A model generated the notes under the pieces. The model saw only the letters and a list, made by a program, of their open reading frames with translations. It did no database searches and had not been told where the DNA came from. Source: Candidatus Bathyarchaeota archaeon (GTDB taxonomy: Archaea > Thermoproteota > Bathyarchaeia > 40CM-2-53-6). Taken from it: a stretch of 64,000 nucleotides of DNA. The DNA is taken from assembly GCA_963833125.1 (NCBI GenBank), contig CAWHWX010000016.1:352001-416000 (forward strand), in the 5' to 3' direction. The position numbers and the translations under genes were made by a program. Positions 3,039 to 58,883 of this stretch are shown piece after piece; position 1 is the first letter of the stretch; each line of letters opens with the position of its first letter.

Positions 3039-3056
3039 CCCGATATTTGTTGAGTA

Positions 3057-3503
3057 CTAGTTGTAGGCACTATAGATTGAAGGGTATCGTTGAATGAGAA
3101 TAAGGTTGAGTTTGAGAACGTTGACGTAAGGGTCGCCTGTTACCCAAAGCGTTCTCTCAATATTTGAATCCACGATCTGCCTCAGCGCATCTGAAGAAAT
3201 GCCGGTTGCTGCCTGTATTCTTGGTATTTGGGAGTAAGCATCTTGGAGAGTAATGTCTGGGTCAACTCCGGATGCTGAGGCGTTCCAAGGGTGGAAGAAC
3301 ATCGATGAGTTGAAGTTCTCTGCAACCAGAATAGAGCCAACATTTCGCCCATTCAACTGCACTAACTCCCCGTTCGCCTGATAGGGCATTAGGATCTGTG
3401 CGAGTCCGGTTACGACGATAGGAAACACTAGCCCGCACAATATGAGTGAGATTATCGCCATACTGACTAGAGGCAGATAGATGTCTTTTTTCAACTTCAA
3501 CAC
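3057..3503 (-). CDS. kdpC: K+-transporting ATPase subunit C (short form)
   Basis: N-terminal TM, QANG, SASGVDPDIT and VNVLKLN; downstream of kdpB. Confidence 0.9.
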   Translation of the reverse strand: MLKLKKDIYLPLVSMAIISLILCGLVFPIVVTGLAQILMPYQANGELVQLNGRNVGSILVAENFNSSMFFHPWNASASGVDPDITLQDAYSQIPRIQAATGISSDALRQIVDSNIERTLWVTGDPYVNVLKLNLILIQRYPSIYSAYN

Positions 3504-3505
3504 TC

Positions 3506-5641
3506 CTAGATGTGAATTGCAAGTATGAGTAGGTCTATGAGTTTGATGCCGACGAAAGGAACTATGACCCCACCCACGCCGTAGATCATCGTGTTCTTCA
3601 AGAAGAGGGTCATCGTGTCCGTTGGTTTGAACGAAACGCCCTTCATGGCTAGCGGAATTAGGAGGGGAATTATGATTGCGTTGAAAATCAACGCTGAGAG
3701 CACTGCAGTGTGAAGCCCAAGCCCAAGGATGTTTAAAGCGACGAGTTGCGGGACAACGGCGAACATCACAGGAACTATTGCGAAATACTTGGCCACATCG
3801 TTTGCTATACTGAACGTTGTTATCGCTCCTCGTGTCATCAAGAGCTGCTTTCCGAGCATCACTACCTCAATAATCTTCGATGGGTTCGATTCTAAGTCAA
3901 CCATGTTTGCAGCTTCTTTAGCTGCTTGTGTTCCCGAGTTCATGGCGAGTCCCACATCAGCAACCGCCAACGCGGGCGCATCATTTGTCCCATCGCCTAT
4001 CATGGCCACGATCCTGCTGTTAGCCTGTTCTTTGAGAACTATTCCGTGCTTGTCCTCGGGTTTCGCTTGAGGAACATATTCGTCGATTCCGACTTCGGAT
4101 GCTATACTTTTCGCAGTGAGAGGGTGGTCTCCAGTAATCATAACCGGCCGAATGCCCATCGCCTTGACATCCCGAATCTTCTCCTTTATCCCCTCCTTCA
4201 AAATGTCCCGTAACCGAATTATCCCAATTATTTCGCGATTCCTAATAATCGCAACCGGGCTGTCCCCCTCGGCTGAAATCTTGTTGATTGTCTCATCGAA
4301 ATCATCCGGGCATTTCTGAGCAATTTTCTTGATTGCGTCTGGAGCTCCTTTGATGATCTCAACCTCACCGGTTTCCACAGAGCTGTCCAAGGAGTCGGTG
4401 AACTTGCGCCTGAATCTGCTCCGTTCGTCACCACTGCCAGCCTTCGGCAACATGAAACCAGTGCCGATAGTGAACTTCACACCGCTTGTTCTAGTGGTTG
4501 CAGAGAACTCGTACGTCTCGGACAACGCTAAGGCGTTCAACTCTTTCGGTATCAAACCATGGTTGTAGGCCAGCCTGATTATGCTTCGGCCTTCCGGTGT
4601 GTCGTCATGCCAAGACGAGAGAAATGCTGCCTCTCCAACCTCCGTCTCTGTGTGATTTCCAAAAGGCATGAATTCTATGGCCTGTCTGCTTCCGACTGTT
4701 ATTGTACCCGTCTTGTCGAGAAGAATGGTGTCCGTATCGCCGGCAGTTTCGATGGCTCTACCCGATTTTGCAACAATCTTCCTAGCATACAGCCTAGACA
4801 TGCCAGAAAGCCCTATGGCGGGTAGTAGTGCTCCGATGGTCGTGGGTAGTAAGCATACGTAGAGTGCGATTAGGACTGAAAGGTCCGCTCCTAAACTCAA
4901 TACTACGGTTATTCCTAGTAGTGCGAAGATGATGATGGTGAATATCGCCGTCAGAGAAATCAGAACTATCACAACTGCCTGCTCGTTCGGAGTTTTAGGC
5001 CTCTTGGAGGCTTCCACCATCCGAATCATCTGGTTGATGTAGCTGTCCTCGGGGTTCACCGTCACTCTTGCGACGAGCGTATCGCTGATTAGCTTAGCTC
5101 CACCAATCAGCGGGTCGGTGGCAGCCTTCCTGACGGGGGTGGACTCGCCTGTGAGCAGGGATTCATCCACCATTGCAATTCCTTCAAGTACTTCGGAGTC
5201 TATTGGGATCATGTCGCCTTTCTCGAGCAGGATTTGGTCTCCCTTACGCAGTTTAGTTGAAGCGGTAAGAACGATTACACGCTCTTTGCTCTCCGATTGA
5301 ATTTTCTTGGCCATGACTTCCTTCTCCAGTTTCCTTAGACTGCTTGCTGTATTCTTCGCCTGTGTCTCTGCTAGCGAATCTGAAAGAGTACTGAACCAAA
5401 CGGTAACTAGCAGGATGATGGCTACTTCCACGTAGAAGATCGTCTCGCTGGGATTCGCGACGGGCAGAAATCCTTGGGGATAAATTGCCATCGCGGTCAC
5501 GATGAAGAATGTTATTTCTACTATGAACATGACCGGGTTCGAGATCAGGTGAATCGGGTTCAGGCGGACAATGGAGTCTACTAATGTCTTGCTGGATAAA
5601 CTGCTTAACAAAGAACCAGTCTTGTAATCATTAGATGTCAT
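3506..5641 (-). CDS. kdpB: K+-transporting ATPase subunit B
   Basis: NPVMF, TGES, DKTGT, GDGTND and TFSIANDVAKYF. Confidence 0.97.
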   Translation of the reverse strand: MTSNDYKTGSLLSSLSSKTLVDSIVRLNPIHLISNPVMFIVEITFFIVTAMAIYPQGFLPVANPSETIFYVEVAIILLVTVWFSTLSDSLAETQAKNTASSLRKLEKEVMAKKIQSESKERVIVLTASTKLRKGDQILLEKGDMIPIDSEVLEGIAMVDESLLTGESTPVRKAATDPLIGGAKLISDTLVARVTVNPEDSYINQMIRMVEASKRPKTPNEQAVVIVLISLTAIFTIIIFALLGITVVLSLGADLSVLIALYVCLLPTTIGALLPAIGLSGMSRLYARKIVAKSGRAIETAGDTDTILLDKTGTITVGSRQAIEFMPFGNHTETEVGEAAFLSSWHDDTPEGRSIIRLAYNHGLIPKELNALALSETYEFSATTRTSGVKFTIGTGFMLPKAGSGDERSRFRRKFTDSLDSSVETGEVEIIKGAPDAIKKIAQKCPDDFDETINKISAEGDSPVAIIRNREIIGIIRLRDILKEGIKEKIRDVKAMGIRPVMITGDHPLTAKSIASEVGIDEYVPQAKPEDKHGIVLKEQANSRIVAMIGDGTNDAPALAVADVGLAMNSGTQAAKEAANMVDLESNPSKIIEVVMLGKQLLMTRGAITTFSIANDVAKYFAIVPVMFAVVPQLVALNILGLGLHTAVLSALIFNAIIIPLLIPLAMKGVSFKPTDTMTLFLKNTMIYGVGGVIVPFVGIKLIDLLILAIHI

Positions 5642-5660
5642 TGATATTCAGCCACCATCT

Positions 5661-7316
5661 TCACCCGTATCCACTCATGTGGCCTTGGAACCAGGCAAGG
5701 ATTGGTCCGAGTGCGAGAAATGGGAAGAATGTCAACGCGACAAGTATTACAACACTCCCAATCAGCACGATTGAGAAGATTATGGTATCTGTCTTCAGAC
5801 CGATCTCTGCGTGCCTCTTCCTGCCGATCATCGAACCGGCAAGCGCAAACAGCAGACCAATTGGAGCGAATCGGCCTGCAAACATCACCGCCGCGGTTGA
5901 AAAGTTGAAGAAAAGTGTGTTTGCCGAGGCACCAAGAAAGTCAGAGCCGTTGTTAGCGGCGGCTGAAGTGAACTCATAGAGAATCTGAGTAAACCCCAGC
6001 GAATTTCCACTGACCCCTATCGCGTTTGCGGCTCCAGTCGCGTACGCCAGAACGGTGGGTATTAGGATGATTATTGGATGAATGAGAAATGTGACCATCA
6101 CCAGCAGGACGTCTCTTCCTGTAATCTTCATGCCGAGGTATTCGGGGGTTCTGCCTGACATGAGTCCAACGATGAATACGGTGATAATCACGTACATGAC
6201 CATGTACATCAATCCTACTCCTTTTCCGCCAGGAGTTGACTGAATGAGCATGCCCATGAAAGCGGCGAGAATGACAAGCGGGTGTACTGCGGCAAGAGAT
6301 GCGTTTACGGAACCCGTGGTTACCGCGGTAGTTACTACTGTCCAAAAGACCGAGAAGAACCCTCCAAACCTTGCTTCCATCCCCGGGCCGAATACTGGAT
6401 TCGGTACGAAGGCGATGGCAAGGTCAAGTACGAAGAGTCCGTAAGCCCCCCATAGTATCGGGCGGGTTTCCTTCCTCTTTCCAAGCATTTCTCCAAACAC
6501 GAAGCACATAACCGTGGGCATGAGCAGCATTAGAAGAATCTGAAGCACGTCCGTGGCAGGGTTTGGGTTTTGAAAGGGGTAAGCAGAGTTGGCGCCATAG
6601 TAACCGCCTCCGTTTGTCCCAATCTGCATTATAGAGACCAGGGATGCGACGGGCCCTACAAGAATCATCTGTGTTGCGCCCTCCACAGTCTTGACAGTAG
6701 TGTACCCGCTCAGAGTTTGGGGAGTGCCAAGCCAGACGAGAATCAGTGACGCAATTAGGCAGAATGGGAAAAGTACTCGTGTTAGAGATCTAACGAAGTC
6801 GACGTAGAAGTTGCCAAAGTCTTTCGCGCCAACGACAAAAGCCCTCACAAACGCGACGGCAGCACAGATTCCGGAGGCAGCTGAAGTGAATTGCAGAAAC
6901 TGTACTGCGCTCATTTGGCTAAGATAGGAAAGCGCGACTTCGCCGTTGTAATGTTGAAGGTTCGTATTTGTGGCAAAGGAGATGACCTGCATGAACGCTA
7001 GATCCCAGTTCAGGGCGGGAAATCCTTGTGGGTTTAGAGGAAGCTTGTCTTGAAACATGAATATGAAGAATGCAAGCGCCATTTGCACTATATTGAGGAG
7101 CAACAGTGAAAGGAAGTATTCTTTCCAGTTCATCGAACGATTCGGATTCACGCCCGCAAGTCTGTAAAGTGAGTTTTCGATGGGGTTTAGGATTCGGTCA
7201 AGTCGACTGGGCGAACGCGCAAAAACTCTTGCAACATAAGGTGCGATGAGTCGGCCTAACGCGATAGCGGCGCCTAGAATTAGGAATATGGTTGAGGCTT
7301 GAATGAGGTCAATCAA
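5661..7316 (-). CDS. kdpA: K+-transporting ATPase subunit A
   Basis: SFATNTNLQHY, GTNGGG, GRTPEYLG and SAAANNGS selectivity motifs. Confidence 0.97.
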   Translation of the reverse strand: MIDLIQASTIFLILGAAIALGRLIAPYVARVFARSPSRLDRILNPIENSLYRLAGVNPNRSMNWKEYFLSLLLLNIVQMALAFFIFMFQDKLPLNPQGFPALNWDLAFMQVISFATNTNLQHYNGEVALSYLSQMSAVQFLQFTSAASGICAAVAFVRAFVVGAKDFGNFYVDFVRSLTRVLFPFCLIASLILVWLGTPQTLSGYTTVKTVEGATQMILVGPVASLVSIMQIGTNGGGYYGANSAYPFQNPNPATDVLQILLMLLMPTVMCFVFGEMLGKRKETRPILWGAYGLFVLDLAIAFVPNPVFGPGMEARFGGFFSVFWTVVTTAVTTGSVNASLAAVHPLVILAAFMGMLIQSTPGGKGVGLMYMVMYVIITVFIVGLMSGRTPEYLGMKITGRDVLLVMVTFLIHPIIILIPTVLAYATGAANAIGVSGNSLGFTQILYEFTSAAANNGSDFLGASANTLFFNFSTAAVMFAGRFAPIGLLFALAGSMIGRKRHAEIGLKTDTIIFSIVLIGSVVILVALTFFPFLALGPILAWFQGHMSGYG

Positions 7317-7388
7317 ATTTGCTTACGTCCAAGCATATTCTTCCTAGTACGGATTGGCAAGGCATGCCTCGATGAAGCGGGTTAGTCG

Positions 7389-7685
7389 TTACTGTTGCGA
7401 CGGTTGGTTTACGACTGAATGGCCATTCTTGTGGCCTTTGTGTGCGTTCAATACGATTGATGTTACCGTGCTCTTTATGCCCTTTATCTTCAATAGCTTG
7501 TTCTTGAGAAAATCACGAAATTCCTCTATGTCCGCCGCTGAAACGAGCGTGACAATGTCGAACTCTCCGGTTACTTCGTAGATTTCTTCTACGTTAGCAA
7601 ATTGGTTAAGCGCTTTGACGACGTCGTCCAAGGTGGCCGACTCGCAAAAAATGTCTACAAAAGCTAGAAGACGTGCCAAGTTCAA
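7389..7685 (-). CDS. Lrp/AsnC ligand-binding-domain protein (no HTH)
   Basis: VEEIYEVTGEFDIV..IKGIKSTVT; co-oriented directly upstream of kdpA. Confidence 0.8.
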   Translation of the reverse strand: MNLARLLAFVDIFCESATLDDVVKALNQFANVEEIYEVTGEFDIVTLVSAADIEEFRDFLKNKLLKIKGIKSTVTSIVLNAHKGHKNGHSVVNQPSQQ

Positions 7686-8187
7686 TCATCGATCCTGGAC
7701 TCCACCGAGTTTCTTTTTTCCTCCACTCTCAGCAACATATTAAGCATTGCCGTGAATTCTGAAGCAGAACTTACTTCCCGGCCTCTTCTAACTTACTGCC
7801 CAGATAACTTCGCAATTTCTTACAACCGGGCACGATAGCGCATTAGATATTTTGTAAAGCAGTAGACTACTCACATCCTCTTTGATCGCGATTCAACTTC
7901 CGGTGCTCGCACCATTCGGAGTGCATACCAGAAATACTACCGTTGCCATCTACGCCGTACAAAGAATTGTTTTTGCTAGTCTCGTAGATGCTTCCCTCGA
8001 CGCAAAGGCATGCATTTTTCCTTGAACGGGTTTCAATGAAAATCAGCGTCTCTCCCTCACTTGGCTCAAGTTCACAAGGTTACCAGATGGGAAGGGTAGG
8101 GTTTGGTGGGGAATGATTCGCCCATACTGGTTATATACTCGTCTGTGGACTGTGGCAACTACAAGATGTAGTTGAGTTGGAAAAATC

Positions 8188-8475
8188 ATGAGTCAAACAA
8201 AATCTGCATACCTTCTCACTGTTGTCGGCGTCGCTGTAATGGCGATAACCGTGATTTTTGGTGCTGTTAGAGCGTTAATGTTCAGGGCGATGTTCCGTCC
8301 TGGAGGTTTCAACGGCACTGGTGGAGGACCTCCCGGGGGCTTTAGCGGAGGGCGCCAGTTTGGCGGCGGATTTGGGTTCGGTTTAACGAACTACGTAACC
8401 ATACTCGGCCTTGTAATCGTAATTATAGGCATCGTATGGCTAGGCCTAGCCCTCAGAAAAACTCCTAAGACTTGA
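8188..8475 (+). CDS. Small 2-TM membrane protein with Gly/Phe-rich loop
   Basis: Two hydrophobic helices flank GGFNGTGGGPPGGFSGG; TATA-like TTATATA upstream. Confidence 0.65.
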   Translation: MSQTKSAYLLTVVGVAVMAITVIFGAVRALMFRAMFRPGGFNGTGGGPPGGFSGGRQFGGGFGFGLTNYVTILGLVIVIIGIVWLGLALRKTPKT

Positions 8476-8539
8476 CGGAACTCAGAATGCATATCCTCTA
8501 GTTTCTAAAGTCAGTTTTGTCTTAATCTCGGTTTAGTGC

Positions 8540-8563
8540 GTAGACGCTTCTTATGGCGTCTAC
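8540..8563. terminator. Hairpin between convergent genes
   Basis: GTAGACGC-N8-GCGTCTAC perfect 8-bp stem. Confidence 0.35.
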
Positions 8564-8619
8564 TACTACTTTCCGGTTTCTCTGAGGAATACAAAAAGAG
8601 AAAGTATTGAACTTAGAAC

Positions 8620-9842
8620 CTAAGCGTAGGCTTCCTCGCCATGCTCACTGATGTCTAGACCCGTATCCTCTTCCCGTGCACTGACTCTGAGCGGGGTGAA
8701 ATGTCCTATCACTTTGAGTAGCACATAGGAGCCACAGAACGCGAACGCTGCGACGATGGCCACGGCCTCGCATTGAAGCAACAGTTGCATTGGGTTGCCG
8801 TAGAATAAGCCGTTAGGGCCGCCCGCGTTGATTAGGGTGGACGCGAAGAGCCCTGTTGCTATTGTTCCCCAGATTCCTCCGGCGCCATGGCAGGCGAAGA
8901 CATCAAGCGAATCATCTACTTTTGTTCTACCTCTCCAACTGGCAACGGTATTGCATAGCGCTCCAGCCACCAGGCCTATGATGATCGATGGCATCGGTCC
9001 GACATATCCTGAAGCAGGCGTAATTGCCACCAATCCGCAAACTGCTCCTGCACACATTCCAAGCGCAGACGGCTTGCCTTTCATCAACCAGTCTACCGTC
9101 ATCCAACTTACTGCTGCTGCGGCTGCTGCCAAGTTTGTTACGACAAGGGCGTTGACAGCGAGAGCATTCGCAGCTAGCGCGCTCCCGCGTTAAATCCGAA
9201 CCAACCGAACCATAGTATTGAAGCGCCGAGTATCACGTAGGGAATGTTCGCGGGTTTCATTTCCTTTTTCTTTTCGAGCCCTCGTCTCCTTCCGACGACC
9301 ATTGCAGCGGCTAGGGCTGAGATTCCAGCTGACGTGTGAACTACAAGCCCTCCGGCGAAGTCAATTACGCCCATGGATCTCAGAAATCCTCCAACTGCCC
9401 AGTTCCAGTGGGCTATGGGAGCGTAGATGAACGTGGTCCAAAGAATAACGTAGATCATTAACGCCTTGAACCGAATTCGTTCTGCAAAAGCTCCAATGAT
9501 TAGGGCAGGAGTAATTGCAGCAAATTTCAATTGAAAAGCGAAGTAGAGGAGTTCGGGAATTGTATTCGAGTATCCGGGGTTCGGGGCGGGGCCGACATTG
9601 TTCATGAATACGTCAGCTAGGCTACCGATGAAACCATTAACCGAGGGGCCCAACGCGAGGCTGTATCCCCAGAAAGCCCAAATTAGACTCACGACCGCGA
9701 AAATCGCAAAACATTGAGCGATCGTTGATACGAGGTTTTTTCTTCTAACAAAGCCACCGTAAAAGAATCCTAAGGCTGGCGTCATAATCATGACGAGGGC
9801 AGTAGCGGCGATGACCCACGCGACGTCTCCTGAATCAATCAA
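8620..9842 (-). CDS. amt: Ammonium transporter; frameshift near 9180
   Basis: DFAGGLVVH, WFGWFGFN, DDSLDVFACHG and HGEEAY; both conserved pore His present. Confidence 0.93.
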
Positions 9843-9964
9843 CCCTGCGAAATACCTCGAATCCGAGGAAGCTTTCGAGTGTGCTAATAGCTCTTTTCTA
9901 CATACTGGAAATTCATCTACAGAGCTCTATGCGCGTGACTTGAGCCGCAGGCCAAGCGCAGTAC

Positions 9965-10775
9965 TTGCTTTATCAGTCCTTTCCAGTAACAGAGCGCTCT
10001 GATGGTTTGAGCGGTGAATTCCGGGTGGGAGTAGATTCCGATAACAATGATTCTAATGGCCTGTCCCAGGAAACTTGGCGGAAAGTCATAGGGGCCATCG
10101 AAGAATCTATCCCACTCTACGACGAAGTCAACAATCTCATCTCGTTTGGTAAGGCGCAAGTAACCCGCAGGATCGCGATTCAAAGGCTACAACTGACAGA
10201 GGGAGTTTCAATTCTCGATGGCGGGATTGGGCCAGGAACGACGTCAAGGTTGATTGTGGAATCGGTTAAGCCGGGTTTGCTCGTAGGGTTGGATGGATCG
10301 GTGAAGCAGCTCAAGACCGCTAAAGCTAACTTAGATACACTTGATCCAAACAGATTGCAGGTTGTGAGAGGTTCGTTTGAATTTCTTCCATTCCTGCGAC
10401 AACACATTCCACGCTATCATAACCTGTTACGCACTGCGTGACAGCCTCCACCTCTCCAAATCCATCGCCGAGTACTATCGGGTCTGTGCCCAAAATGGAA
10501 TCTTCGCCGATGCGGACATAGGTAAACCTGAGAATCTCCTGAAAAGAGCGGGCAGCACCCTATACATAAGATACCTAATGCCAATTATCGCTCAAGCGAC
10601 GATTCTCGGCAAAATGAAGGGAAACCCTTGGCGGATGATAGGGCCTACGTACAAATCCTTGCCGACAAACCACGCTCTCCTGGTCCAGGTAAAGAGCAAA
10701 TTCCAGAGCGCCGACCTCAAGGAATTTTTGATGGGTGGCGCAATCGTAATAATTGGCCGAAAATCATCGACCTAA
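9965..10775 (+). CDS. UbiE/MenG-like class I SAM methyltransferase; frameshift near 10390, start uncertain
   Basis: YDEVNNLISFG, LDGGIGPG, LPF and YALRD. Confidence 0.75.
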
Positions 10776-10865
10776 GTGGAAGCGCCATGTTCTATATAGA
10801 TTACTAGTAATTGATAGAAAGCCGTTAAGTTTTGTCGGCTTGTAATTACTTCCAGGTCATGTAGC

Positions 10866-11543
10866 TTGGAAAGCGCGAAGTCGAAGCCATGTAGTTTGAA
10901 GGGGTTACAGTGTATTATCCTGATTCTCTCTGCGGGTGTAATCGGATCCCTCGGAGTATATCTTGGAACCCAGAATCATGGCTATGGCTCAAGTCTCCCG
11001 CAAGCTAGTGCTGCCTCATCTTCTCAGCAGTCAGGCACGTTTAGGCTAACCCTACTTGAAATCATGGACACAGAGTGGAATTCCTCAATGGCCCAACCCG
11101 AGTTCGAAATACTTGGACCTAATGGAACACAATCAGCAGCTCACATATTCCTTCCCGCTCACACACTGATCCAGCTAACAATTGTTTCTTACGATACGCC
11201 AACGGCGGGCAGTACAGACATGGAAGGCAAAGTAACTGGAACAGTCGGAGGCACAGTATACTTAGTCAACGGCACAAGCGCCTCCGGAATGGACGTTAGC
11301 GAGCACTGGGGGCAAAATGTTTCATCGGTTCCCGGAGCAATGCTTGCACACACATTCTCGATTCCCCAATTGGGAATCAATATTCCGGTTGTTGGAGGTA
11401 ACTTGGAGGTAGCGTACCTATCTCTTGACCAGACCGGGACGTTTCAGTGGATCTGTTTGACACCCTGCGGCTTCGGCGCCACTGGAATGCAAGGGGCAAT
11501 GTCCGAACCCGGCTGGATGGAAGGGCAAGTAACAGTATATTGA
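10866..11543 (+). CDS. Membrane-anchored cupredoxin-fold protein
   Basis: N-terminal TM; HTFSIP...GTFQWICLTPCG...M...WMEG C-terminus. Confidence 0.7.
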   Translation: MESAKSKPCSLKGLQCIILILSAGVIGSLGVYLGTQNHGYGSSLPQASAASSSQQSGTFRLTLLEIMDTEWNSSMAQPEFEILGPNGTQSAAHIFLPAHTLIQLTIVSYDTPTAGSTDMEGKVTGTVGGTVYLVNGTSASGMDVSEHWGQNVSSVPGAMLAHTFSIPQLGINIPVVGGNLEVAYLSLDQTGTFQWICLTPCGFGATGMQGAMSEPGWMEGQVTVY

Positions 11544-52959: not shown

Positions 52960-54184
52960 TTACTTTCGTTGGGACCGCTTTTTGCTCGTGGTTGCCAGTG
53001 CAGCCTCTAATTGTTCACGCATTGTGGAGGCGGGTATGTTCTGTAGGCCGAGTAGGGTTGTTTTGCCGCGGACGCCTTCCCCTGATTTTGAAGCCGCTAT
53101 GACGCCTATGGCGCTTAAGCCGCGGGCGTATTTCCAGATTTGCGTGTGTTTTCTGGGTTTATCGTTGTATTCCTCGCAGACGGCTTTGTATTCGCGTTCA
53201 ACGGTTCCGATGTTGGCGTAGGCTTCCTGCGACTCCTCAAGGGTCCTTGCTAAGGCTAGTAGCATGTATTTTTCGTGGGAAGATAGTGCGGCAATGTATT
53301 CGCCGCGCAGCATGGGGTAAACGCTTCCCGCCGCTTTGCGGACATGTTCGGTGAGAACTCGCTTTGAAGGTTCTGAATCCGCATACTTTCCTGCTCGCCA
53401 GATAAGTTCTATGGCGTATCGAGCATCACCACTCTGCCCTCCTACGTCAGCGACAAGTTCTAGGGCTTCGTCGGCTACCGCGTTTTCTTTGAAAGCTAAG
53501 CTGACGCGGGCTTGGAGTATATCGATTAGTTGACGGGAATTGTACTTGTCAAGTTTGACGATGTTCCTTTGCAGGGTATCGACAGTGCTTCTATCCAGTT
53601 TTTGTAGGTATTCGAGTTCGCGGAGTATGAAGATGAGTGATAGGCGGATTGGTTTTCCAACCCGTTCCTCTTGGATGCGGGTCAGGTTGTAGATTGGGGT
53701 TGACTCCTCCACCCTGATCAAGTGTTCAACTTCATCTAGAGCCAGTATGAGGTGCATGTTCTTGTCGTCAAGCATGTCCATTAGAGTGTGGAGAAGTTCT
53801 TCGGGTGCGAAGCCGCGTTTTGGAAATTCAGGTTCGAACTGCGTCAGAACCCGTTTGATGATCATGAAGAGGCTGCCTTTCGCTTCGCGGCAGTTGACGT
53901 GAACATAATGGAGATTGACCTTTCGCCCCCTCGCAGCCTTGACTAGGTCTGTGCCGAAGCGTTGGACCAAAACCGTCTTCCCAGTTCCCACATCGCCCGT
54001 GATCAGAACTCGTTGGCTTGTGGAGAACGGGCTGTCAAGGGAAAAACGGAAGAGTTGCGTTAGAAAACGCATCTGATCGTCGCGGGTGAGGAAGGTTGCG
54101 GGGTAGGAACTCCAACGAAAGAGGGGTTTCGTCCTTGAAAACTGTCGGTCTCTCTAACGTCTCTTTAACGATGTCGGAAGACAA
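52960..54184 (-). CDS. cdc6: Cdc6/Orc1 replication initiator; +1 indel near 54085
   Basis: VFKDE..LPHRD N-terminus read manually, GDVGTGKT, LDEVE, GDAR and wHTH G.RGKT. Confidence 0.93.
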
Positions 54185-54302
54185 TTGAACGAGAGCCCCT
54201 ACTCTGGGCATGGTTTACAATACTCCCATTTTACGGTGTTTGTTGTCTAAGACGATAAAAATAGGAGAGCAGGGTGAAACTGATTGACGGGCTACGTTAA
54301 AC

Positions 54303-54330
54303 TTCTTAGTCTTAGGCGCAAGACTAAGTA
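54303..54330. promoter_or_regulatory. 11-6-11 inverted repeat upstream of cdc6
   Basis: TTCTTAGTCTT-AGGCGC-AAGACTAAGTA, 10/11 arm match. Confidence 0.35.
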
Positions 54331-54387
54331 AATTCTGCCTTCAGATGACGGTTTTTTCAGCACACCGAAACTAGGTAGGTGCTGAGA

Positions 54388-54430
54388 ACTTGACGTTACC
54401 ACTAAGAAAGGCAACGGGGCGTTGTCGGTT
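54388..54430. repeat. Junction repeat A plus left TIR
   Basis: ACTTGAC-GTTACC-ACTAAGAAA-GGCAAC-GGGGC-GTTGTCGGTT. Confidence 0.7.
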
Positions 54431-54507
54431 TTGGATTGCTCAAGAGGTAGCTGACACCAAATTCACCGCTGACCTACGGCCATTTGTTGACATTGATTCA
54501 GAATGCA
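54427..54507 (+). pseudogene. DDE transposase remnants
   Basis: FWIAQEVADTKFTADLRPL followed by LTLIQNA. Confidence 0.65.
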
Positions 54508-54556
54508 ATCGCTAAATACAAAGAATCAAAGCAGTGAAGTTAGAGGCAATCCAGAT

Positions 54557-54772
54557 TTGAAAGGCTTGACAAGCAAGCAGCATCTATTCATGCGGGTAAT
54601 ACTTGTAGTCAGCCTTGCAAATGCGGCAATTTACTACAATCTCTTCTTGAATCCCCAAGTTGTAACTGTACCATGGCAATTCGCCGAATTTGCCGTATTG
54701 GCAACTGCCGTTACCCTCTTCGCTCTTACAGTAAATCTACTCTTTTGGTGGAAGTACCAACGAAGTACCTAG
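54557..54772 (+). CDS. Small 2-TM cargo protein (paralog of 56909-57166)
   Basis: MKGLTSKQHLF...LFWWKYQ from TTG 54557. Confidence 0.6.
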   Translation: MKGLTSKQHLFMRVILVVSLANAAIYYNLFLNPQVVTVPWQFAEFAVLATAVTLFALTVNLLFWWKYQRST

Positions 54773-54990
54773 ACAAGATCACACCGCAGGTATCTGACAT
54801 ATGGAGAGCCGACGAACTATTCCTAAAAAGTAAGGGCAAACATGAAAGTACCTGTACGCACTCATGGACGATCAGACAAGATCTGGATAGGCCCAAATAA
54901 ATGTAACGTTATCTTCACTCATGCCTAGAAAGCAGGGATAGAAGTTAAGGGCAAAGACAGGTGGTTGACTCTGATTCAGAACGCTTCAAG
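54763..54990 (+). pseudogene. DDE transposase remnants
   Basis: KYLDKITPQVSDIWRADELFLK..YLYALMDDQTR; half-site GTAACGTTATC at 54903; then AGIEVKGKDRWLTLIQNA. Confidence 0.7.
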
Positions 54991-55117
54991 AAACCCACGA
55001 CTCGCTGATCGTTCGCAACTGCGACATCGGTCTGGCACGCAAAGGTGTTCTCGGCTTTCGACGCATTACGTTAAATAGTCTTAACTTCATGGCGACGTGT
55101 AGTGGCTTGGGGAGCTT

Positions 55118-55618
55118 ATGGTTCAAAGATTCAGGTTCATTGCCGTTTCGATCCTTTCGATTCTGGTGCTCACGATTATCGGAGCCAGCTTAGTCTCACC
55201 GGCATACGCTCAAACGATTACGCTTAATGTTTCGCCTAACCCTGTATTGTCCTCAACAACATATTTCTCTCTTACATACTCTGGTACGCTCGCCCAGCGT
55301 CTGCTGATCTAATACATATACTCCTGTATTCAGGTTCTGGGTGTTCGGTGTTTGCAAACAGCTTTGTTGTCGTAACCGCTAACGGTATCACGGGCGCCTT
55401 CAGTAGGAGCGTTATCCCCAATAATGATCCGGGGGTCGTATAGCGCCCAGGCGGTGGACATTACAAATCCAGGTGTCCCCGCATCAGGTTGCGTGAACTT
55501 CACAATCGACCCCGCCTCTTCCATACCTGAATACCCAGTCGGCTTAGCGATACTAGCAATCTTCATGATAATCGCATACGGCGTAATCAGAAGAAAAACG
55601 GCGACGAAACAAAAGTAA
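55118..55618 (+). CDS. Secreted cargo protein with PEF-CTERM-like anchor; frameshifted
   Basis: Signal PAYA|Q; IPEYPVGL + TM + RRK. Confidence 0.6.
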
Positions 55619-55689
55619 GAACCAATCAACGGCATGTTGCCGACTTTTCAACCATCAACCGAACGGTAACAGTCTTAAGAATTTCATTC

Positions 55690-55732
55690 ATCAACCGACA
55701 ACGTAACGTTACCACGAAAAAGGTAAGTGGCT
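55690..55732. repeat. Right TIR plus junction repeat B
   Basis: ATCAACCGACAAC-GTAAC-GTTACC-ACGAAAAA-GGTAAG-TGGCT. Confidence 0.75.
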
Positions 55733-55840
55733 GACCATAACTCAAAATGCGAGCCGTCGAATTTAATATCCGACGAAAAGCTAGTATGGTTTCGGGTTGT
55801 GGGGTCAGCGTAAGGTTGGAGCAGAAACGTAATCGTTGTC

Positions 55841-56290
55841 GTGCTACTTGCCGTCGTTGTTGCCTGCGTGATTCTGCCATCAGCGAGAGCAACTGTACCT
55901 ATCACCGTGACCATTACCCCGCCAAGTCCATCCGCAAATGCGTCTTTCACAATCTCTGGGCAGTTCGTGGGGTATGGAAGTGGAGTACACTGGATAATGG
56001 ATTTCGGCACAGCTCAGAGTCTGAATCCTTGCGTTCCCCTAAGTTACGGACCTTCGTTTAGTGGAACGACAGGTAGCGGTGGCACATACTCCCAGAGCAT
56101 TTCAGGCCGATCCCCAGGACCTTACACAGTAACCGTAAGAGACGAGTTTGGTGACAACTCTGGTCGCGTCTGTTTCACAATCGGTTTTGGCTCTACATTT
56201 AACATCCCTGAATACCCACTAGGATTACCGATACTCGCAATCCTCACCGTAATCGCATACGGCCTAATCAGACGCAGACCCCGAAACTAA
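55841..56290 (+). CDS. Secreted cargo protein with PEF-CTERM-like anchor (paralog of 55118-55618)
   Basis: Signal SARA|T; CFTI..IPEYPLGL + TM + RRR. Confidence 0.7.
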   Translation: MLLAVVVACVILPSARATVPITVTITPPSPSANASFTISGQFVGYGSGVHWIMDFGTAQSLNPCVPLSYGPSFSGTTGSGGTYSQSISGRSPGPYTVTVRDEFGDNSGRVCFTIGFGSTFNIPEYPLGLPILAILTVIAYGLIRRRPRN

Positions 56291-56542
56291 CTGCTTTTTT
56301 GAGTCAAGTCCTGCCAGTTAACAGAACCTTGCATTGTTAGGTAAGCTCAAGTTGTATAATTCTGGTTAGTCGGTTGCGTCTGGTTAAGCAGTTGCAATTT
56401 TCTGACAAATGGAACGAAGTATGGTTAGGCTAACCATGCGAACCCGATTCCTACGCCTACATGTAAAACCCAGCGAAGCTCTCGCATTATTTGTGGCTGC
56501 TTTTCTCACCTTAACATCAACCCGATTTTCAAAGCATATTCT

Positions 56543-56585
56543 ATCAACCGACAACTTCACGTTTCCTGCGAAAGGGTAACGCGGC
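56543..56585. repeat. Right TIR plus junction repeat C
   Basis: ATCAACCGACAAC-TTCAC-GTTTCC-TGCGAAAG-GGTAAC-GCGGC. Confidence 0.75.
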
Positions 56586-56586
56586 C

Positions 56587-56897
56587 AATTTCCATGAGGC
56601 TTACTTGCAAGAGTTTTGGACGCAGAACAAGGACACTAGAACCGAACATATTCGCCACATTCGGTTAGCAGGAGATCGCAACAACAACCGCATGGAACGC
56701 TTCAACGGAGAAGTAAGTCAACGGCAGAAGGTAGTGCGAACCTTGAAGCGGCCCGATACCCCGATACTATCAGGTTATCGCATTTACCATAACTACGTTT
56801 GATCACACGAAGCCCTAAGTGGAAAGACTCCCACAGAAGCCGCGGAATCCAAATCAGAGGAAAAGACGGATGGATGACACTAATTCAGAACGCAAGA
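56587..56897 (+). pseudogene. DDE transposase C-terminal remnant
   Basis: NNNRMERFNGEV..YHNYV*SHEAL.GKTP..WMTLIQNA, with an in-frame TGA and a frameshift. Confidence 0.8.
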
Positions 56898-56908
56898 AGT
56901 AACTCCGT

Positions 56909-57166
56909 CTAGTTCGAGTCCTCTATCTTCCGAGGAAAAAGCCAAAATCGCTGATTATCAGTTCTTAGCTGATACTTCCACCAGTACAGCAGGACTACCG
57001 TGAGAACGAAAAGCGTAGTGACGGTTATCCAAGCGGCGGCTTCAAAGATATTAGAGGTGAATGTTTGTAGGTTGCGTGAGATAGCGTAGAAGACAGCGGC
57101 ATTCAGAACAATGGTTACAGACAATACCCTCACGAACAGGTGTTCTTTGCTCGTTAATCCTTTCAT
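56909..57166 (-). CDS. Small 2-TM cargo protein
   Basis: MKGLTSKEHLF...LYWWKYQ. Confidence 0.65.
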   Translation of the reverse strand: MKGLTSKEHLFVRVLSVTIVLNAAVFYAISRNLQTFTSNIFEAAAWITVTTLFVLTVVLLYWWKYQLRTDNQRFWLFPRKIEDSN

Positions 57167-57169
57167 CTT

Positions 57170-57361
57170 TCAAGCCCTCCTCCGCACGACAAAATAGGCT
57201 AAGGCCCCCGTCACCCAAGAGATCAACAAACCGACTCCTACGCCGCGGAAATAGGCGTTCCCTAAAATGTATCCGAGCGGAACAAAAATCATGCTCAAGA
57301 CAAACTCAAGCACTACGAGCTTGGCGCATGTAGAGCGCCATTTGTCTTTAGTTTCTGTCAT
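57170..57361 (-). CDS. Small 2-TM cargo protein
   Basis: Two TMs and a basic end. Confidence 0.55.
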   Translation of the reverse strand: MTETKDKWRSTCAKLVVLEFVLSMIFVPLGYILGNAYFRGVGVGLLISWVTGALAYFVVRRRA

Positions 57362-57388
57362 CGCATTTCACGCTTGTCATCAAACGCT

Positions 57389-57640
57389 CTAGGTCTTTGG
57401 GATGTGGCCTGAACTGCGACCCACAAGAAACATGCCGCCGCCAACGAATATTACGCCGAAAAGCACTAGACCGCTGGCAACTAGAAGCCCAAGGTTAAAA
57501 CAGTTAGGGCCCCACCAAGGCGAGCCGCATAGAAAAGTGCTCAGGCCTAAGACAAAAAGCACCCATCCAACAAGAAACACAAAACCCCCCAATACCCCCC
57601 ACGTATTGTAACGGCCGCGCATTTTCACTTCTGTCATCAC
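57389..57640 (-). CDS. Small 2-TM cargo protein with Cys-flanked loop
   Basis: TM-CGSPWWGPNC-TM. Confidence 0.55.
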   Translation of the reverse strand: MMTEVKMRGRYNTWGVLGGFVFLVGWVLFVLGLSTFLCGSPWWGPNCFNLGLLVASGLVLFGVIFVGGGMFLVGRSSGHIPKT

Positions 57641-57824
57641 ATTTCACCCACCATCAATGTGCCGCGTCTCGCTCTTACTGGTTCCCCTGTTTTTCACGAA
57701 TCGAAACATGGTTCCGTGTGCAAACGGCTAGAAACAGTAAGATCGAATCCCACCAAACGAAAGTAAACACCTCCCACCATCACCGAACAGTAACATCGGA
57801 ACCTTACGTGGATTTCACCTAGGA

Positions 57825-57836
57825 GGTAACGTTACC
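57825..57836. repeat. Terminal junction palindrome D
   Basis: GGTAACGTTACC perfect 12-mer; GTAACGTTACC is shared with repeat B. Confidence 0.55.
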
Positions 57837-57859: not shown

Positions 57860-58883
57860 TCATCCAGCTCGATAGGATTCAATCACTCTGTAAAGCTCAT
57901 CGCGTTCAGATGGCGCAACCTCCCTAACCGCCCCTCCGACCCCTACTAACTTTCTACCCCGGCTCCTCGGAGTCACGGTCCCAATGATTCTCGCTGGAAT
58001 GCCGCGCTGCCTCAGACTGCGTAGGATTCCACTGCTTTTGCGCCTATCCGCCACTATTAGGAGACAACCTGAACTCATCAGACGCAACGGATCCACCCGG
58101 AGAGCGGAGCATATCTCCTTCGTTTCCTGGCGAATCGCAATGCGTGATTCATGAATCACAAAACCCAACCTGGGACGCTTCTGCGAGCTCCCAGACACCC
58201 TGCAACAAGCCTCCCTCGGTGGGGTCATGCATTGCCCTAACTCCACCAGCCCGCACCGCTATCAACGCGTCGTCCACTACGCTGATCTTGTTCCTCAAAC
58301 CCTTAGCCCGTCTCAGAGATCGAGGCCCGATTTTCCGGCGAAGTTTATGGGCAAAGTCAGTGGCGAAAACCGCGGTACCTTCGATCCCGATGGTTTTCGT
58401 CATAATGATCTGGTCTTGTGGGCGTGCGGTGTGTGATGTGACGTAATTCTTTCTCGAGACTACACCAACCATATACCCGATCACGATCGGGCGCCTCAAG
58501 CCAGGCGTAACCTCTGTGTGGCCTCCCACGACGGAGACGCCAATTCCTTTCGCCGCTTTGTCGATTTGTTTCATGATCGTATCGACGAGGGCTATGGTCG
58601 ATCTCTCAGGAAGTAGCAGGTCGCATAGGAACCACTTGGGTTTCGCTCCCCTACAAGCTACGTCGTTGGCGTTCACGTGAACGGCGAGCCATCCAATATC
58701 AAAAGCCGTGCCTGTAACTGGGTCGGTCGTCAAAACCAAAACGTCTTTTCCGAGCGATACTAACGCCGCATCCTCTCCAACCGACGAACCAAGAATCACC
58801 GACCGATCCTTCGCTCCCTTGTAGCGAAACACGCTGCGAACTAGGACTTCAGTTGGGATTTTCCCAGTCCGAAAGAACGTCAT
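57860..58883 (-). CDS. AIR synthase-related/HypE-like protein; frameshift near 58160
   Basis: GEDAA, TTDPVT, NANDVA, GGHTE, MHDPTEGG and DPLRLMSSG. Confidence 0.85.

What the first reader, a model, noticed from the sequence alone, without database searches (positions are those of the whole stretch)
54388..57836. Repeat-delimited array of cargo cassettes beside cdc6, apparently built by a DDE integrase that duplicates a ~30-bp palindromic target
Seen in sequence: three full and two partial copies of N5-GTTACC-N8/9-GGTAAC-N5 (A 54390-54420, B 55703-55732, C 56556-56585; half-sites 54903 and 57825). Repeat A is immediately followed by GTTGTCGGTT, while B and C are immediately preceded by its reverse complement (ATC)AACCGACAAC, always 5 nt from the palindrome arm. 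Between repeats lie fragments of one DDE transposase family (three separate TLIQNA C-termini at 54487, 54962 and 56871) and small cargo genes. Inference: the geometry repeat|TIR...TIR|repeat is what arises if each insertion duplicates a whole 30-34 bp palindromic target. That resembles Cas1 spacer acquisition or casposon target duplication, and is far longer than the ~8-bp duplications of IS6. Repeated insertion would grow an integron/CRISPR-like gene-cassette array at a fixed locus. Alternatively, the palindrome (8-bp asymmetric spacer, loxP/dif-like) is a host tyrosine-recombinase site targeted by the elements.
Basis: partly seen in the sequence, partly recalled or inferred. Interest (0 to 1): 0.88.

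Follow-up and report, generated by a model that had tools for sequence, protein, structure and literature searches.

The report
Decayed IS6-like transposon array beside cdc6
The repeated "palindrome" is the outer tips of neighbouring IS6-like transposons separated by their ordinary 8-bp target duplication, in a decayed stack of cargo-carrying elements wedged between cdc6 and the next gene of a Bathyarchaeia genome.

Summary
The repeats, flanking 10-mers and transposase fragments are at the stated coordinates, but no copy is a perfect GTTACC-N8/9-GGTAAC. GGTAAC/GTTACC are the terminal 6 bp of the ~65-bp inverted repeats of an IS6-like family. This family makes 8-bp target duplications: 9 of 20 full-length MITEs have perfect ones, and two identical 2,748-bp copies in a relative carry different ones.

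The "palindrome" is therefore right-end tip + 8 bp + left-end tip. Across 23 genomes of the genus, 31 of 33 such tip-to-tip junctions have exactly 8 bp. The same 8-mer recurs along an array. In 6 of 8 relatives the cdc6 to AIR-synthase-like interval is 234-308 bp and holds neither hexamer.

The window holds a ~3.5-kb stack of at least four broken elements. Most keep a transposase 3' tail, a cargo gene and a right end. A 30-bp target duplication, a Cas1-like mechanism and a tyrosine-recombinase site are not supported.

This is a new variant of a known kind, of moderate interest.

The parts
54291..54386 (.). Start of the inserted DNA. This segment is shared only with the closest relative, G016.
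   Evidence: 88.2% identity over 356 bp, window 54043-54396, to the G016 interval. It is absent from the 6 empty-site relatives. No paralogue in G000.
54387..54400 (+). Solo right-end-type tip AACTTGACGTTACC. This is the left arm of repeat A.
   Evidence: 14 of 14 identity to the terminal 14 bp of the 186-bp MITE family.
54401..54409 (.). Spacer A, ACTAAGAAA (9 bp).
   Evidence: One contig of run X2 (depth 3.4) lacks one letter at 54403, which would give 8 bp. This is weak.
54410..54430 (+). Degenerate left-end (IRL) remnant GGCAACGGGGCGTTGTCGGTT. It is fused directly to an internal transposase fragment.
   Evidence: Contains the exact 10-mer GTTGTCGGTT. Compared with the C4 left end GGTAACGTTACGTTGTCGGTT.
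54426..54507 (+). Transposase residues 238-260 (RFWIAQEVADTKFTADLRP), then, in another frame, tail 1 LLTLIQNA (54484-54507).
54503..54772 (+). Cargo ORF of 89 aa, a small membrane protein.
   Evidence: 86% DNA paralogue at C16:179634-179841. No Pfam family.
54763..54896 (+). Transposase residues 200-243, with one frame break.
   Evidence: 84% and 82% identity to the C4 copy.
54902..54918 (+).
   Evidence: 15 of 17 identity to the C30 left end GGTAACGTTACCTTCAC.
54917..54994 (+). Transposase tail 2 (AGIEVKGKDRWLTLIQNA).
55118..55618 (+). Cargo gene for a secreted protein with a PEYP-TM-basic C-terminus. It is frameshifted into ORFs 55118-55312 and 55424-55618.
   Evidence: The 3' tail has more than 20 DNA paralogues.
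55647..55713 (+). Right end (IRR) B, 67 bp, with two CATCAACCGA repeats. It ends in GTTACC.
   Evidence: nhmmer E = 2.7e-13. 92% identity to the C4 element's right end.
55714..55727 (.). Spacer B, ACGAAAAA (8 bp), followed by GGTAAG. The hexamer is a probable 6-bp vestige of the next element's left tip.
   Evidence: The 8-bp spacing matches the genus-wide junction rule. That it is a vestigial tip is inference.
55719..55763 (+).
   Evidence: (E = 0.15, weak).
55841..56290 (+). Cargo ORF of 149 aa with a PEF-CTERM-like C-terminus.
   Evidence: TIGR03024 E = 0.17, 12.2 bits, below the cut-off of 23.
56511..56566 (+). Right end (IRR) C, the second subtype. It ends in GTTTCC.
   Evidence: nhmmer E = 1e-07. 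Same subtype as C4:221329-221385 and three C1 ends.
56567..56580 (.). Spacer C, TGCGAAAG (8 bp), followed by GGTAAC. The hexamer is a probable vestigial left tip.
   Evidence: That it is a vestigial tip is inference.
56581..56903 (+). Transposase C-terminal third (about residue 277 to the end, NFHEAY...NNNRMERFNGE...TLIQNA), with a stop and a frame break.
56909..57640 (-). Three small membrane-protein ORFs (85, 63 and 83 aa), cargo of the last unit.
   Evidence: Paralogous to C16:134943-135379 (74%) and C16:135606-135751 (97%) in the hsp20-locus array. No Pfam family above cut-off.
57770..57836 (+). Degenerate right end (IRR) D, ending in GGTAACGTTACC, 23 nt from the stop of the AIR-synthase-like gene.
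   Evidence: nhmmer E = 8.4e-06. The subterminal CCATCACCGAACAGTAACA aligns with B.

Best explanation
Window 54291-57836 is a roughly 3.5-kb graveyard of at least four broken members of one IS6-like transposon family of Bathyarchaeia. They are stacked mostly head to tail in what is, in most relatives, a 234-308-bp gap between cdc6/orc1 and an AIR-synthase-like gene.

Intact members of the family are 2.6-3.1 kb long. They have ~65-bp terminal inverted repeats beginning GGTAAC-GTTAC-...CGGTTGA. The transposase is about 380 aa, with an N-terminal zinc-binding region followed by a DDE_Tnp_IS240 core. Variable passenger genes lie on both sides of the transposase gene.

Insertion duplicates 8 bp. 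The adjoining N5 and the AACCGACAAC 10-mer also lie inside the elements.

New copies tend to insert into the 8 bp that already abuts a resident element's tip. That re-duplicates the same 8-mer and builds arrays. The junction geometry is shown. That the resident tip, rather than the local sequence, attracts the newcomer is inferred.

Later deletions removed left ends and most of each transposase gene. What remains is units of transposase tail + cargo + right end. This deletion step is inferred.
For: 1. Where the elements end.
- 9 of 20 full-length 186-bp MITEs have perfect 8-bp duplications flush with GGTAAC...GTTACC, and 4 more have one mismatch.
- G011 has two copies with 0 mismatches in 2,748 bp, running exactly from GGTAAC to GTTACC. 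One is flanked by ATCCCGAG on both sides and the other by TTACGTAA on both sides.
- The G000 C4 element (3,067 bp) is flanked by TTACGTAA twice. The C26 cargo element (1,105 bp) is flanked by CTTTACGA/GTTTACGA.

2. Junction rule.
- The pattern CGTTACC-N{2,20}-GGTAACG gives 33 sites in 12 of 23 genomes of the genus.
- 31 sites have N8, 2 have N7 and none has another spacing. A reversed-pattern control gives 9 sites over all spacings.

3. The same 8-mer recurs within an array.
- G016: ttacgtaa three times.
- G017: five times around four elements, including two inverted copies identical over 2,644 bp.
- G033: three times.
- G016:C2: catctgag twice.

4. Empty site. 6 of 8 relatives have a 234-308-bp interval containing no GTTACC or GGTAAC.

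5. Family assignment.
- PF13610 scores 41-56 bits against a cut-off of 27.
- NF033587 (IS6) is matched over 1-201 of 202 positions at 97-102 bits.
- There are 4,921 homologues. Those that carry a source name are called Bathyarchaeia transposases.

6. Window anatomy. Transposase fragments map to residues 200-243, 238-260, about 277-410, and to tails. Right ends B, C and D are found by an end profile at E = 2.7e-13, 1e-07 and 8.4e-06. Window 54387-54400 matches the MITE tip 14 of 14.

7. Asymmetry of decay. In G000 the first ~190 residues of the transposase survive at 1 locus, while C-terminal fragments survive at 21 loci.
Against: - The window's own spacers are not identical (ACTAAGAAA, ACGAAAAA, TGCGAAAG), and A's spacer is 9 bp rather than 8. 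The flank after D (AAACTTCC) is unrelated to them.
- After B and C only 6 bp resemble a left tip. At B, the sequence from the last three bases of the spacer through GGTAAG can also be read as transposase codons (KGKW). The vestigial-tip reading is therefore not proven.
- No intact element lies in the window, so the order of events cannot be reconstructed.
- The IS6 equivalog model is matched below its curated cut-off of 125 bits. Element length and inverted-repeat length are far from canonical IS6.
- Two array elements lack matching 8-mers: C19:3401-4615 and G011:C3:644-4235.
- Orientation is not always head to tail (G017 and G032 arrays).
- About 19 of the 33 junctions are at one orthologous locus, so they are not independent.
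Confidence: 0.85

Rival explanations
1. Each insertion by the DDE enzyme duplicates a whole 30-34-bp palindromic target, as in Cas1 spacer acquisition or casposon integration.
For: Geometry: the repeat is followed by GTTGTCGGTT at A and preceded by its complement at B and C. In direct orientation the three spacers are all purine-rich and partly alike.
Against: - Duplications are 8 bp in MITEs (9 of 20 perfect), in identical active copies and in cargo elements.
- The arms and the N5 are part of the sequence shared between identical copies at unrelated sites.
- The empty sites lack the palindrome.
- No Cas1 was found in G000, which is 87.8% complete.
- MITE duplications also favour GAAA-rich 8-mers, which can explain why the spacers look alike.
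Confidence: 0.03
2. The palindrome is a host site for a tyrosine recombinase (dif/loxP/attC-like), and the cassettes are integron-like.
For: It has a palindromic shape with an asymmetric 8-bp spacer. The units carry single genes.
Against: - None of the 12 Phage_integrase hits in G000 lies in the window. The nearest are at C16:1240-12959, about 340 kb away.
- The palindrome is absent from empty sites.
- Genome-wide it occurs only where element ends abut.
- Spacer sequences differ between loci, as target duplications do.
Confidence: 0.02
3. The elements and the 8-bp duplication are as in the best explanation, but arrays arise without any attraction by resident ends. In this view a few sites are sequence hot spots or tolerated 'safe havens', and selection or deletion bias leaves stacks there.
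For: - About 19 of the 33 junctions carry TTACGTAA-like 8-mers at one orthologous locus upstream of an hsp20 gene.
- TTACGTAA is itself palindromic.
- MITE duplications show a GAAA-rich preference.
- The cdc6 interval is also variable in G016 and G006 with non-IS inserts.
Against: - At least 12 different 8-mers with no common motif occur at tip-8-tip junctions.
- Re-use of exactly the same staggered 8 bp is seen at several unrelated loci: catctgag, ttcttaca, caattgag.
- MITE insertion sites are otherwise dispersed.
Confidence: 0.25
4. The GGTAAG after B and the GGTAAC after C are not vestigial left tips. In this view they are chance or transposase-coding sequence, and B and C are right ends joined to the interior of a neighbouring element by insertion or adjacent deletion.
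For: - At B the sequence reads in frame as KGKWLTITQNA, aligned to ...KDKWLTIIQNA of the C4 copy.
- A comparable junction at C19:18907 runs from the right end straight into transposase codons with no tip-like hexamer.
Against: - A <=1-mismatch hexamer at exactly N8 has a chance of about 19/4096 per site. It occurs at both B and C, at the spacing found in 31 of 33 genus junctions.
- At C the hexamer adds bases not present in DGAPNFHEAY of other copies.
Confidence: 0.3

Closest known systems
IS6/IS26 family insertion sequences, including IS26 pseudo-compound transposon arrays and the mode that inserts next to a resident IS26
   Same: - DDE_Tnp_IS240 catalytic core, 8-bp target duplication, and ends beginning GG.
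- MITE derivatives, and arrays of mostly directly repeated copies interspersed with passenger DNA.
- A tendency to land beside a resident copy.
- Inverted duplicate copies and an inverted 8-mer inside arrays, as expected from intramolecular replicative events.
- Literature basis: passages of PMC7986276 and the title and abstract listing of PMC4196232.
   Different: - Canonical members are about 800 bp with 14-bp inverted repeats, and only one tIS with a passenger gene was listed (PMC7986276 passages). Here elements are 2.6-3.1 kb with ~65-bp ends and passenger genes on both sides of a ~380-aa transposase with about 140 extra N-terminal residues.
- The NCBIfam IS6 model is matched below its cut-off.
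- IS26's targeted mode, as described in those passages, makes no new duplication and no extra IS copy. Here every newcomer keeps both of its ends and the 8-mer is re-duplicated.
Mobile insertion cassettes (MICs) and MITEs: non-autonomous derivatives made of both IS ends, with or without passenger genes
   Same: - The 186-bp MITE family has 28 BLAST hits.
- Cargo elements of 1.1-1.3 kb with both ends but no transposase occur at C26:6743-7847 and C30:41490-42711, and as the 1,325-bp unit in G017.
- The window units 54902-55713 and 55722-56566 have the same layout.
   Different: - In the one transposase-less cargo element where this could be read (C26) and in both window units, a short transposase 3' tail is kept upstream of the cargo.
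- The window units have lost most of their left ends, so they are probably immobile.
- The term MIC and its definition are recalled. only lists papers that hold the term.
Tandem casposon integrations (Cas1-dependent) and CRISPR repeat duplication
   Same: Successive integrations into the same target leave the target duplication repeated between neighbouring elements (passages of PMC6563490).
   Different: No Cas1 was found in G000. The enzyme here is a DDE transposase. The duplication is 8 bp. Targets are many different 8-mers rather than one gene end.
IS30 and IS911-type insertion next to their own inverted repeats
   Same: A transposase that prefers targets adjoining or resembling its own ends, giving abutted right-end/left-end junctions.
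   Different: Those are different families, with 2-4-bp spacers and reactive dimer junctions. Here the spacer is the full 8-bp duplication and the neighbours are often different family members.
Integrons
   Same: An array of single-gene units at a fixed locus, each ending in a conserved imperfect inverted-repeat element.
   Different: There is no IntI, attI or attC. The units are bounded by transposon ends. No tyrosine recombinase lies in the window.

Membership tests
IS6 family (ISfinder sense) | Transposase with the IS240-type DDE domain | tested here: met
   PF13610 scores 41.1 bits for the C4 copy and 51-55.6 bits for full-length homologues, against a cut-off of 27.
IS6 family (ISfinder sense) | Match to the curated NCBIfam IS6 equivalog (NF033587) above its cut-off | tested here: not met
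   93.9-102.5 bits over model positions 1-201 of 202, against a cut-off of 125. This makes it a distant relative.
IS6 family (ISfinder sense) | 8-bp direct target duplication | tested here: met
   9 of 20 MITEs have perfect duplications. Identical G011 copies are flanked by ATCCCGAG and by TTACGTAA. Also C4 and C26.
IS6 family (ISfinder sense) | About 800 bp long, short (~14 bp) inverted repeats, a single ORF | tested here: not met
   Elements are 2,644-3,067 bp with ~65-bp ends and several passenger ORFs. The typical values come from passages of PMC7986276.
IS6 family (ISfinder sense) | Transposition only through cointegrates (replicative or targeted conservative) | not testable with these tools
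   Only indirect hints: an identical inverted copy pair within one array and an inverted 8-mer in the G032 array.
Casposon / Cas1-mediated integration | A Cas1 (casposase) gene and a longer target duplication (14-15 bp by recall) at a specific gene end | tested here: not met
   PF01867 gives 0 hits in G000 at 87.8% completeness. Duplications are 8 bp at varied sites.
Integron, or a tyrosine-recombinase site (dif/loxP-like) | A linked tyrosine recombinase and a recombination site that exists in the unoccupied locus | tested here: not met
   There are 12 PF00589 hits in G000 and none in the window. 6 of 8 empty sites lack both hexamers.
PEF-CTERM / archaeosortase substrates (the cargo proteins) | Match to the TIGR03024 sorting-signal model above its cut-off | tested here: not met
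   1 of 4 cargo proteins tested matched, at E = 0.17 and 12.2 bits against a cut-off of 23. The PEYP + hydrophobic helix + basic tail motif is visible, so this is a resemblance only.

The most novel reading that the evidence does not exclude
The transposase of this Bathyarchaeia IS6-like clade has a resident-end-directed insertion mode. It places each newcomer, with both of its ends, into the very 8 bp that abuts a resident tip and re-duplicates them.

Fixed loci, such as upstream of hsp20 or beside cdc6, would then accumulate ordered arrays of cargo units, many of which encode surface-anchored proteins. This would be a transposase-built counterpart of integron or CRISPR array growth. The fragile tip-8bp-tip palindromes would then drive the deletions that immobilise the cargo.
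Probability: 0.4. Interest if true: 0.65.

Novelty: new variant of a known kind. Interest (0 to 1): 0.45.

Why it matters
It removes a tempting but wrong claim, that a DDE enzyme duplicates a 30-bp palindrome in a Cas1-like way. In its place it gives a testable, well-supported picture.

The picture is of a very large archaeal clade of IS6 relatives that I found described in no paper among those my searches returned. The clade has 4,921 database homologues. Its elements have long structured ends, carry passenger genes, and have MITE and cargo-only derivatives. They also have a marked habit of stacking tip to tip with the same 8-bp duplication.

A 2019 survey of archaeal integrated elements stated that composite DNA transposons carrying passenger genes had not been detected in archaea (passage of PMC6563490). 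If the end-directed mode is real, it extends what is known from IS26 about insertion beside a resident copy. It would also show how surface-protein genes are shuffled in an abundant, uncultured sediment and peat archaeal group.

Tried and rejected
- Exact palindrome search in the window: 0 matches. I therefore moved to mismatch-tolerant and genome-wide scans.

- Using the end profile as a complete census. It misses some subfamilies, for example the right end at C16:135784. Counts of ends from it are lower bounds, so I relied on the pattern search instead.

- Head-to-tail orientation as a strict rule. I held this after and dropped it, because the G017 and G032 arrays contain inverted members.

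- The idea that the ~70 bp flanking the TTACGTAA arrays is part of the element or a palindromic MITE. Rejected: it is the conserved upstream region of an orthologous hsp20 gene, with one paralogous copy at C4.

- Sequencing runs. No run held more than 0.18 of the sampled words. Laying X1-X4 gave only fragmentary contigs of related strains.
  - One X2 contig (3,524 nt, depth 12) covers 54085-54322 and 55521-56053, with joints that skip 54323-54926 and 54985-55520 ('between: not known'). This hints at a different cargo arrangement in a relative.
  - I draw no conclusion from this contig, from uncovered parts, or about circular or excised forms.

- Full reconstruction of the order of insertions and deletions in the window. 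I tried pairing 8-mers: A/B match 6 of 8, 54894-54901 against B match 4 of 8, and B/C match 3 of 8. These matches are too weak in A-rich sequence, so the order is left open.

- Literature.
  - Searches returned no paper on this Bathyarchaeia family or on IS6-type arrays with re-duplicated 8-bp targets. Only listings were examined.
  - Passages were read in PMC7986276, PMC13343696 (0 occurrences of 'bathyarchae', 'passenger' or 'tandem') and PMC6563490.
  - No supplements were opened, and ISfinder itself could not be consulted, so the family may already be catalogued there.

- No structure prediction, complex prediction, atlas search or RNA-family search was run. None bore on the question.

Full report
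WHAT IS IN THE SEQUENCE

The window is G000:C16:352001-416000, from a 3.07-Mb, 39-contig genome.

- A is GTTACC-ACTAAGAAA-GGCAAC (9-bp spacer).
- B is GTTACC-ACGAAAAA-GGTAAG.
- C is GTTTCC-TGCGAAAG-GGTAAC.

An exact search for GTTACC-N8/9-GGTAAC finds nothing in the window. The 10-mer AACCGACAAC and its complement are exact at 54421(-), 55693(+) and 56546(+), each 5 nt from an arm. Genome-wide the exact 10-mer occurs 13 times, 6 of them in this end context.

THE ARMS BELONG TO THE ELEMENTS

A mismatch-tolerant scan with the 26 bases that end at B's GTTACC gave 44 hits across the genome. In most of them similarity stops immediately after GTTACC. About half belong to a 186-bp MITE family with 28 BLAST hits.

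- Of 20 full-length MITE copies, 9 have perfect 8-bp direct repeats flush with GGTAAC...GTTACC, and 4 more have one mismatch.
- A near-intact 3,067-bp element on contig C4 is flanked by TTACGTAA on both sides.
- A 1,105-bp element on C26, with both ends, a cargo gene and no transposase, is flanked by CTTTACGA/GTTTACGA.
- In relative G011, two copies are identical over 2,748 bp (0 mismatches), exactly from GGTAAC to GTTACC. One sits at a solo site between two ATCCCGAG. The other sits in an array between two TTACGTAA.

GGTAAC and GTTACC are therefore the element tips, and the duplication is 8 bp. The N5 and the 10-mer lie further inside the ~65-bp terminal inverted repeats. Those repeats carry two copies of a CATCAACCGA-like motif.

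THE TRANSPOSASE

The C4 copy is split by one frameshift into ORFs of 321 and 113 aa.

- It matches Pfam DDE_Tnp_IS240 at 41 bits (cut-off 27). It also matches the NCBIfam IS6 equivalog at 94 bits, below that model's cut-off of 125.
- Full-length homologues of about 380 aa match the IS6 model end to end at 97-102 bits. They carry an IS1/IS1595-type zinc ribbon.
- A CxC...CxH SWIM-like motif is visible. PF04434 is precomputed for 4 of the 120 listed homologues.
- The database holds 4,921 homologues at E <= 0.001. Where a source names them, they are Bathyarchaeia transposases.
- By the IS6 review (passages of PMC7986276), canonical IS6 members are about 800 bp with 14-bp inverted repeats and 8-bp duplications. 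Only one was listed with a passenger gene. This clade is a distant, much larger variant.

THE EMPTY SITE

cdc6 orthologues were found in 27 of 31 related genomes. I fetched the neighbourhood in 8 of them.

- In 6 of these, the cdc6 to AIR-synthase-like interval is 234-308 bp and contains neither GTTACC nor GGTAAC.
- G006 has 2,035 bp with two ABC-transporter-like ORFs.
- G016 has 1,600 bp with two other ORFs. It shares window 54043-54396 at 88% identity.
- The window's interval is about 3.8 kb.

So the locus is variable, the window's content is an insertion, and there is no pre-existing host palindrome.

THE JUNCTION RULE

In five relatives the transposase gene occurs in clusters.

- An end profile showed tips facing each other across exactly 8 bp at 7 junctions in 5 of the 8 loci fetched.
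- A pattern search over all 23 genomes of the genus, CGTTACC-N{2,20}-GGTAACG, found 33 distinct sites in 12 genomes. 31 have N8, 2 have N7, and there is no other spacing. The reversed control pattern gave 9 sites over all spacings.
- In G000 itself, all three zero-mismatch N8 palindromes are such junctions.

Within an array the same 8-mer recurs:

- ttacgtaa three times in G016 and twice in G011;
- ttacgtaa twice and ttacgtga once in G013;
- catctgag twice at G016:C2;
- TTACGTAA five times around four elements in G017;
- ttacgcca/ttacacca in G033 and ttcttaca in G032.

Of 10 array elements examined for both flanks, 8 have matching 8-mers. One of these has 1 mismatch and one has a 1-nt offset. 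The 2 that do not match are C19:3401-4615 and G011:C3:644-4235.

In G017 two members of one array are identical over 2,644 bp and inverted relative to each other. That marks a recent event within the array.

About 19 of the 33 junctions are TTACGTAA-like. They lie upstream of one orthologous hsp20 gene, so they are not independent. The remaining junctions still show at least 12 unrelated 8-mers.

I infer that newcomers are drawn to the 8 bp abutting a resident tip. The rival view, sequence hot spots plus tolerance of insertions there, is not excluded.

ANATOMY OF THE WINDOW'S STACK

1. 54387-54400 is a 14-of-14 MITE-type tip.
2. After the 9-bp spacer, 54410-54430 is a 21-bp left-end remnant. 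It is fused to transposase residues 238-260 and to a tail, followed by an 89-aa membrane ORF.
3. 54763-54896 encodes transposase residues 200-243.
4. 54902-54918 is a second left-end remnant. It is followed by a tail, a frameshifted gene for a secreted protein, and right end B (55647-55713).
5. Next come 8 bp, GGTAAG, a fourth tail (55719-55763), a 149-aa ORF with a PEYP-helix-basic C-terminus, and right end C (56511-56566).
6. Next come 8 bp, GGTAAC, the last third of a transposase gene, three small membrane ORFs on the other strand, and the degenerate right end D (57770-57836). D ends 23 nt before the neighbouring gene's stop.

The layout of left end, transposase tail, cargo and right end matches the transposase-less C26 element elsewhere in G000.

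In G000 the first ~190 transposase residues survive at 1 locus, while C-terminal fragments survive at 21 loci. Loss is therefore strongly biased toward the left side.

I read GGTAAG and GGTAAC after B and C as 6-bp vestiges of left tips. They sit at exactly the genus-wide spacing, where the chance of such a hexamer is about 19/4096 per site. At B the same bases also read as transposase codons, so this remains inference at about 70%. A possible cause of the left-side deletions is the fragility of the tip-8bp-tip quasi-palindrome. This is speculation and was not tested.

CARGO

- The PEYP-type C-terminus matches TIGR03024 (PEF-CTERM) only at E = 0.17, in 1 of 4 cargo proteins tested.
- Its coding tail has more than 20 DNA paralogues in G000, several within about 60-170 bp of a right-end tip.
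- One cargo element (C19) ends in a PGF-like motif.
- The active G011 element carries a DUF5678 protein instead.

Cargo is thus variable. It is often, but not always, a putative surface protein.

RIVALS AND KNOWN SYSTEMS

- A 30-bp duplication is contradicted by every element with readable flanks.
- No Cas1 was found in G000.
- No tyrosine recombinase lies in the window.
- Tandem integrations that repeat the target duplication are known for casposons (passages of PMC6563490).
- Insertion beside a resident copy is known for IS26 (title and abstract listing of PMC4196232; passages of PMC7986276). As described there, the IS26 mode adds no duplication and no extra IS copy, unlike here.

LIMITS

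- Sequencing runs held only related strains in fragments.
- Supplements and ISfinder were not consulted.
- The mechanism of targeting and the order of events in the window are inferred, not shown.

VERDICT

The mechanism is ordinary IS6-type 8-bp duplication. The array-building habit and the architecture of the family are a new variant of a known kind. Interest is 0.45.

Noticed in passing
window 57860-58883 (-): The AIR-synthase-like gene (best NCBIfam matches are ThiL, HypE and SelD, all below their cut-offs) is split into two overlapping ORFs in different frames: 58149-58883 and 57860-58246. In relatives both parts lie in one frame (L021 and L022 checked). Contigs of runs X1, X2 and X4 have one letter fewer at 58160. 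This is either a frameshifted pseudogene or an assembly indel.
   Followed up: partly
G000 C16:134943-135792 (L070), with orthologous loci in G011, G013, G014, G016, G017 and G018: A conserved landing site directly upstream of an hsp20 gene (PF00011, E = 1.1e-12). The 8-mer TTACGTAA sits just before a TATA-like CAATATTTATAT. Arrays of up to four or more elements have accumulated there in many species of the genus. The last unit of the window's stack is paralogous to the G000 unit at this site.
   Followed up: partly
G000, e.g. C18:132321-132506 and C9:26916-27100: A 186-bp MITE family with 28 BLAST hits. It shares the element tips and has a G+C-rich internal palindrome (GGGGTGGATCCACCCC). Its duplications are often GAAA-rich 8-mers.
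   Followed up: partly
G000 C16:1240-12959: Six Phage_integrase (PF00589) matches lie within about 12 kb at the start of contig C16. This is an unusual cluster of tyrosine recombinase genes, about 340 kb from the window.
   Followed up: no
L068 (G032:C18) 2518-11283: Within one array the junction 8-mer appears as TGTAAGAA once and as its reverse complement TTCTTACA twice, and transposase genes lie on both strands. This is the signature of an inversion inside the array.
   Followed up: no
L002 (G000 C16:416065-416496), about 65 bp beyond the window's end: Another C-terminal transposase fragment of the same family (144-aa ORF, ...NFHEAY...TLIQNA). It lies between a membrane-protein gene and a chloride-channel-like gene.
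   Followed up: no
G000, e.g. C32:16806-28832 and C16:327781-328525: Clusters of genes share the conserved PEYP-helix-basic 3' coding tail (more than 20 DNA paralogues). Most of these are not next to element ends. This looks like a large family of putative surface proteins, only part of which is transposon-borne.
   Followed up: no
window 54305-54335: A short hairpin-forming inverted repeat (CTTAGTCTTAGG...AAGACTAAG) lies in the 96-bp segment shared only with G016. Its origin is unknown and it has no paralogue in G000.
   Followed up: no
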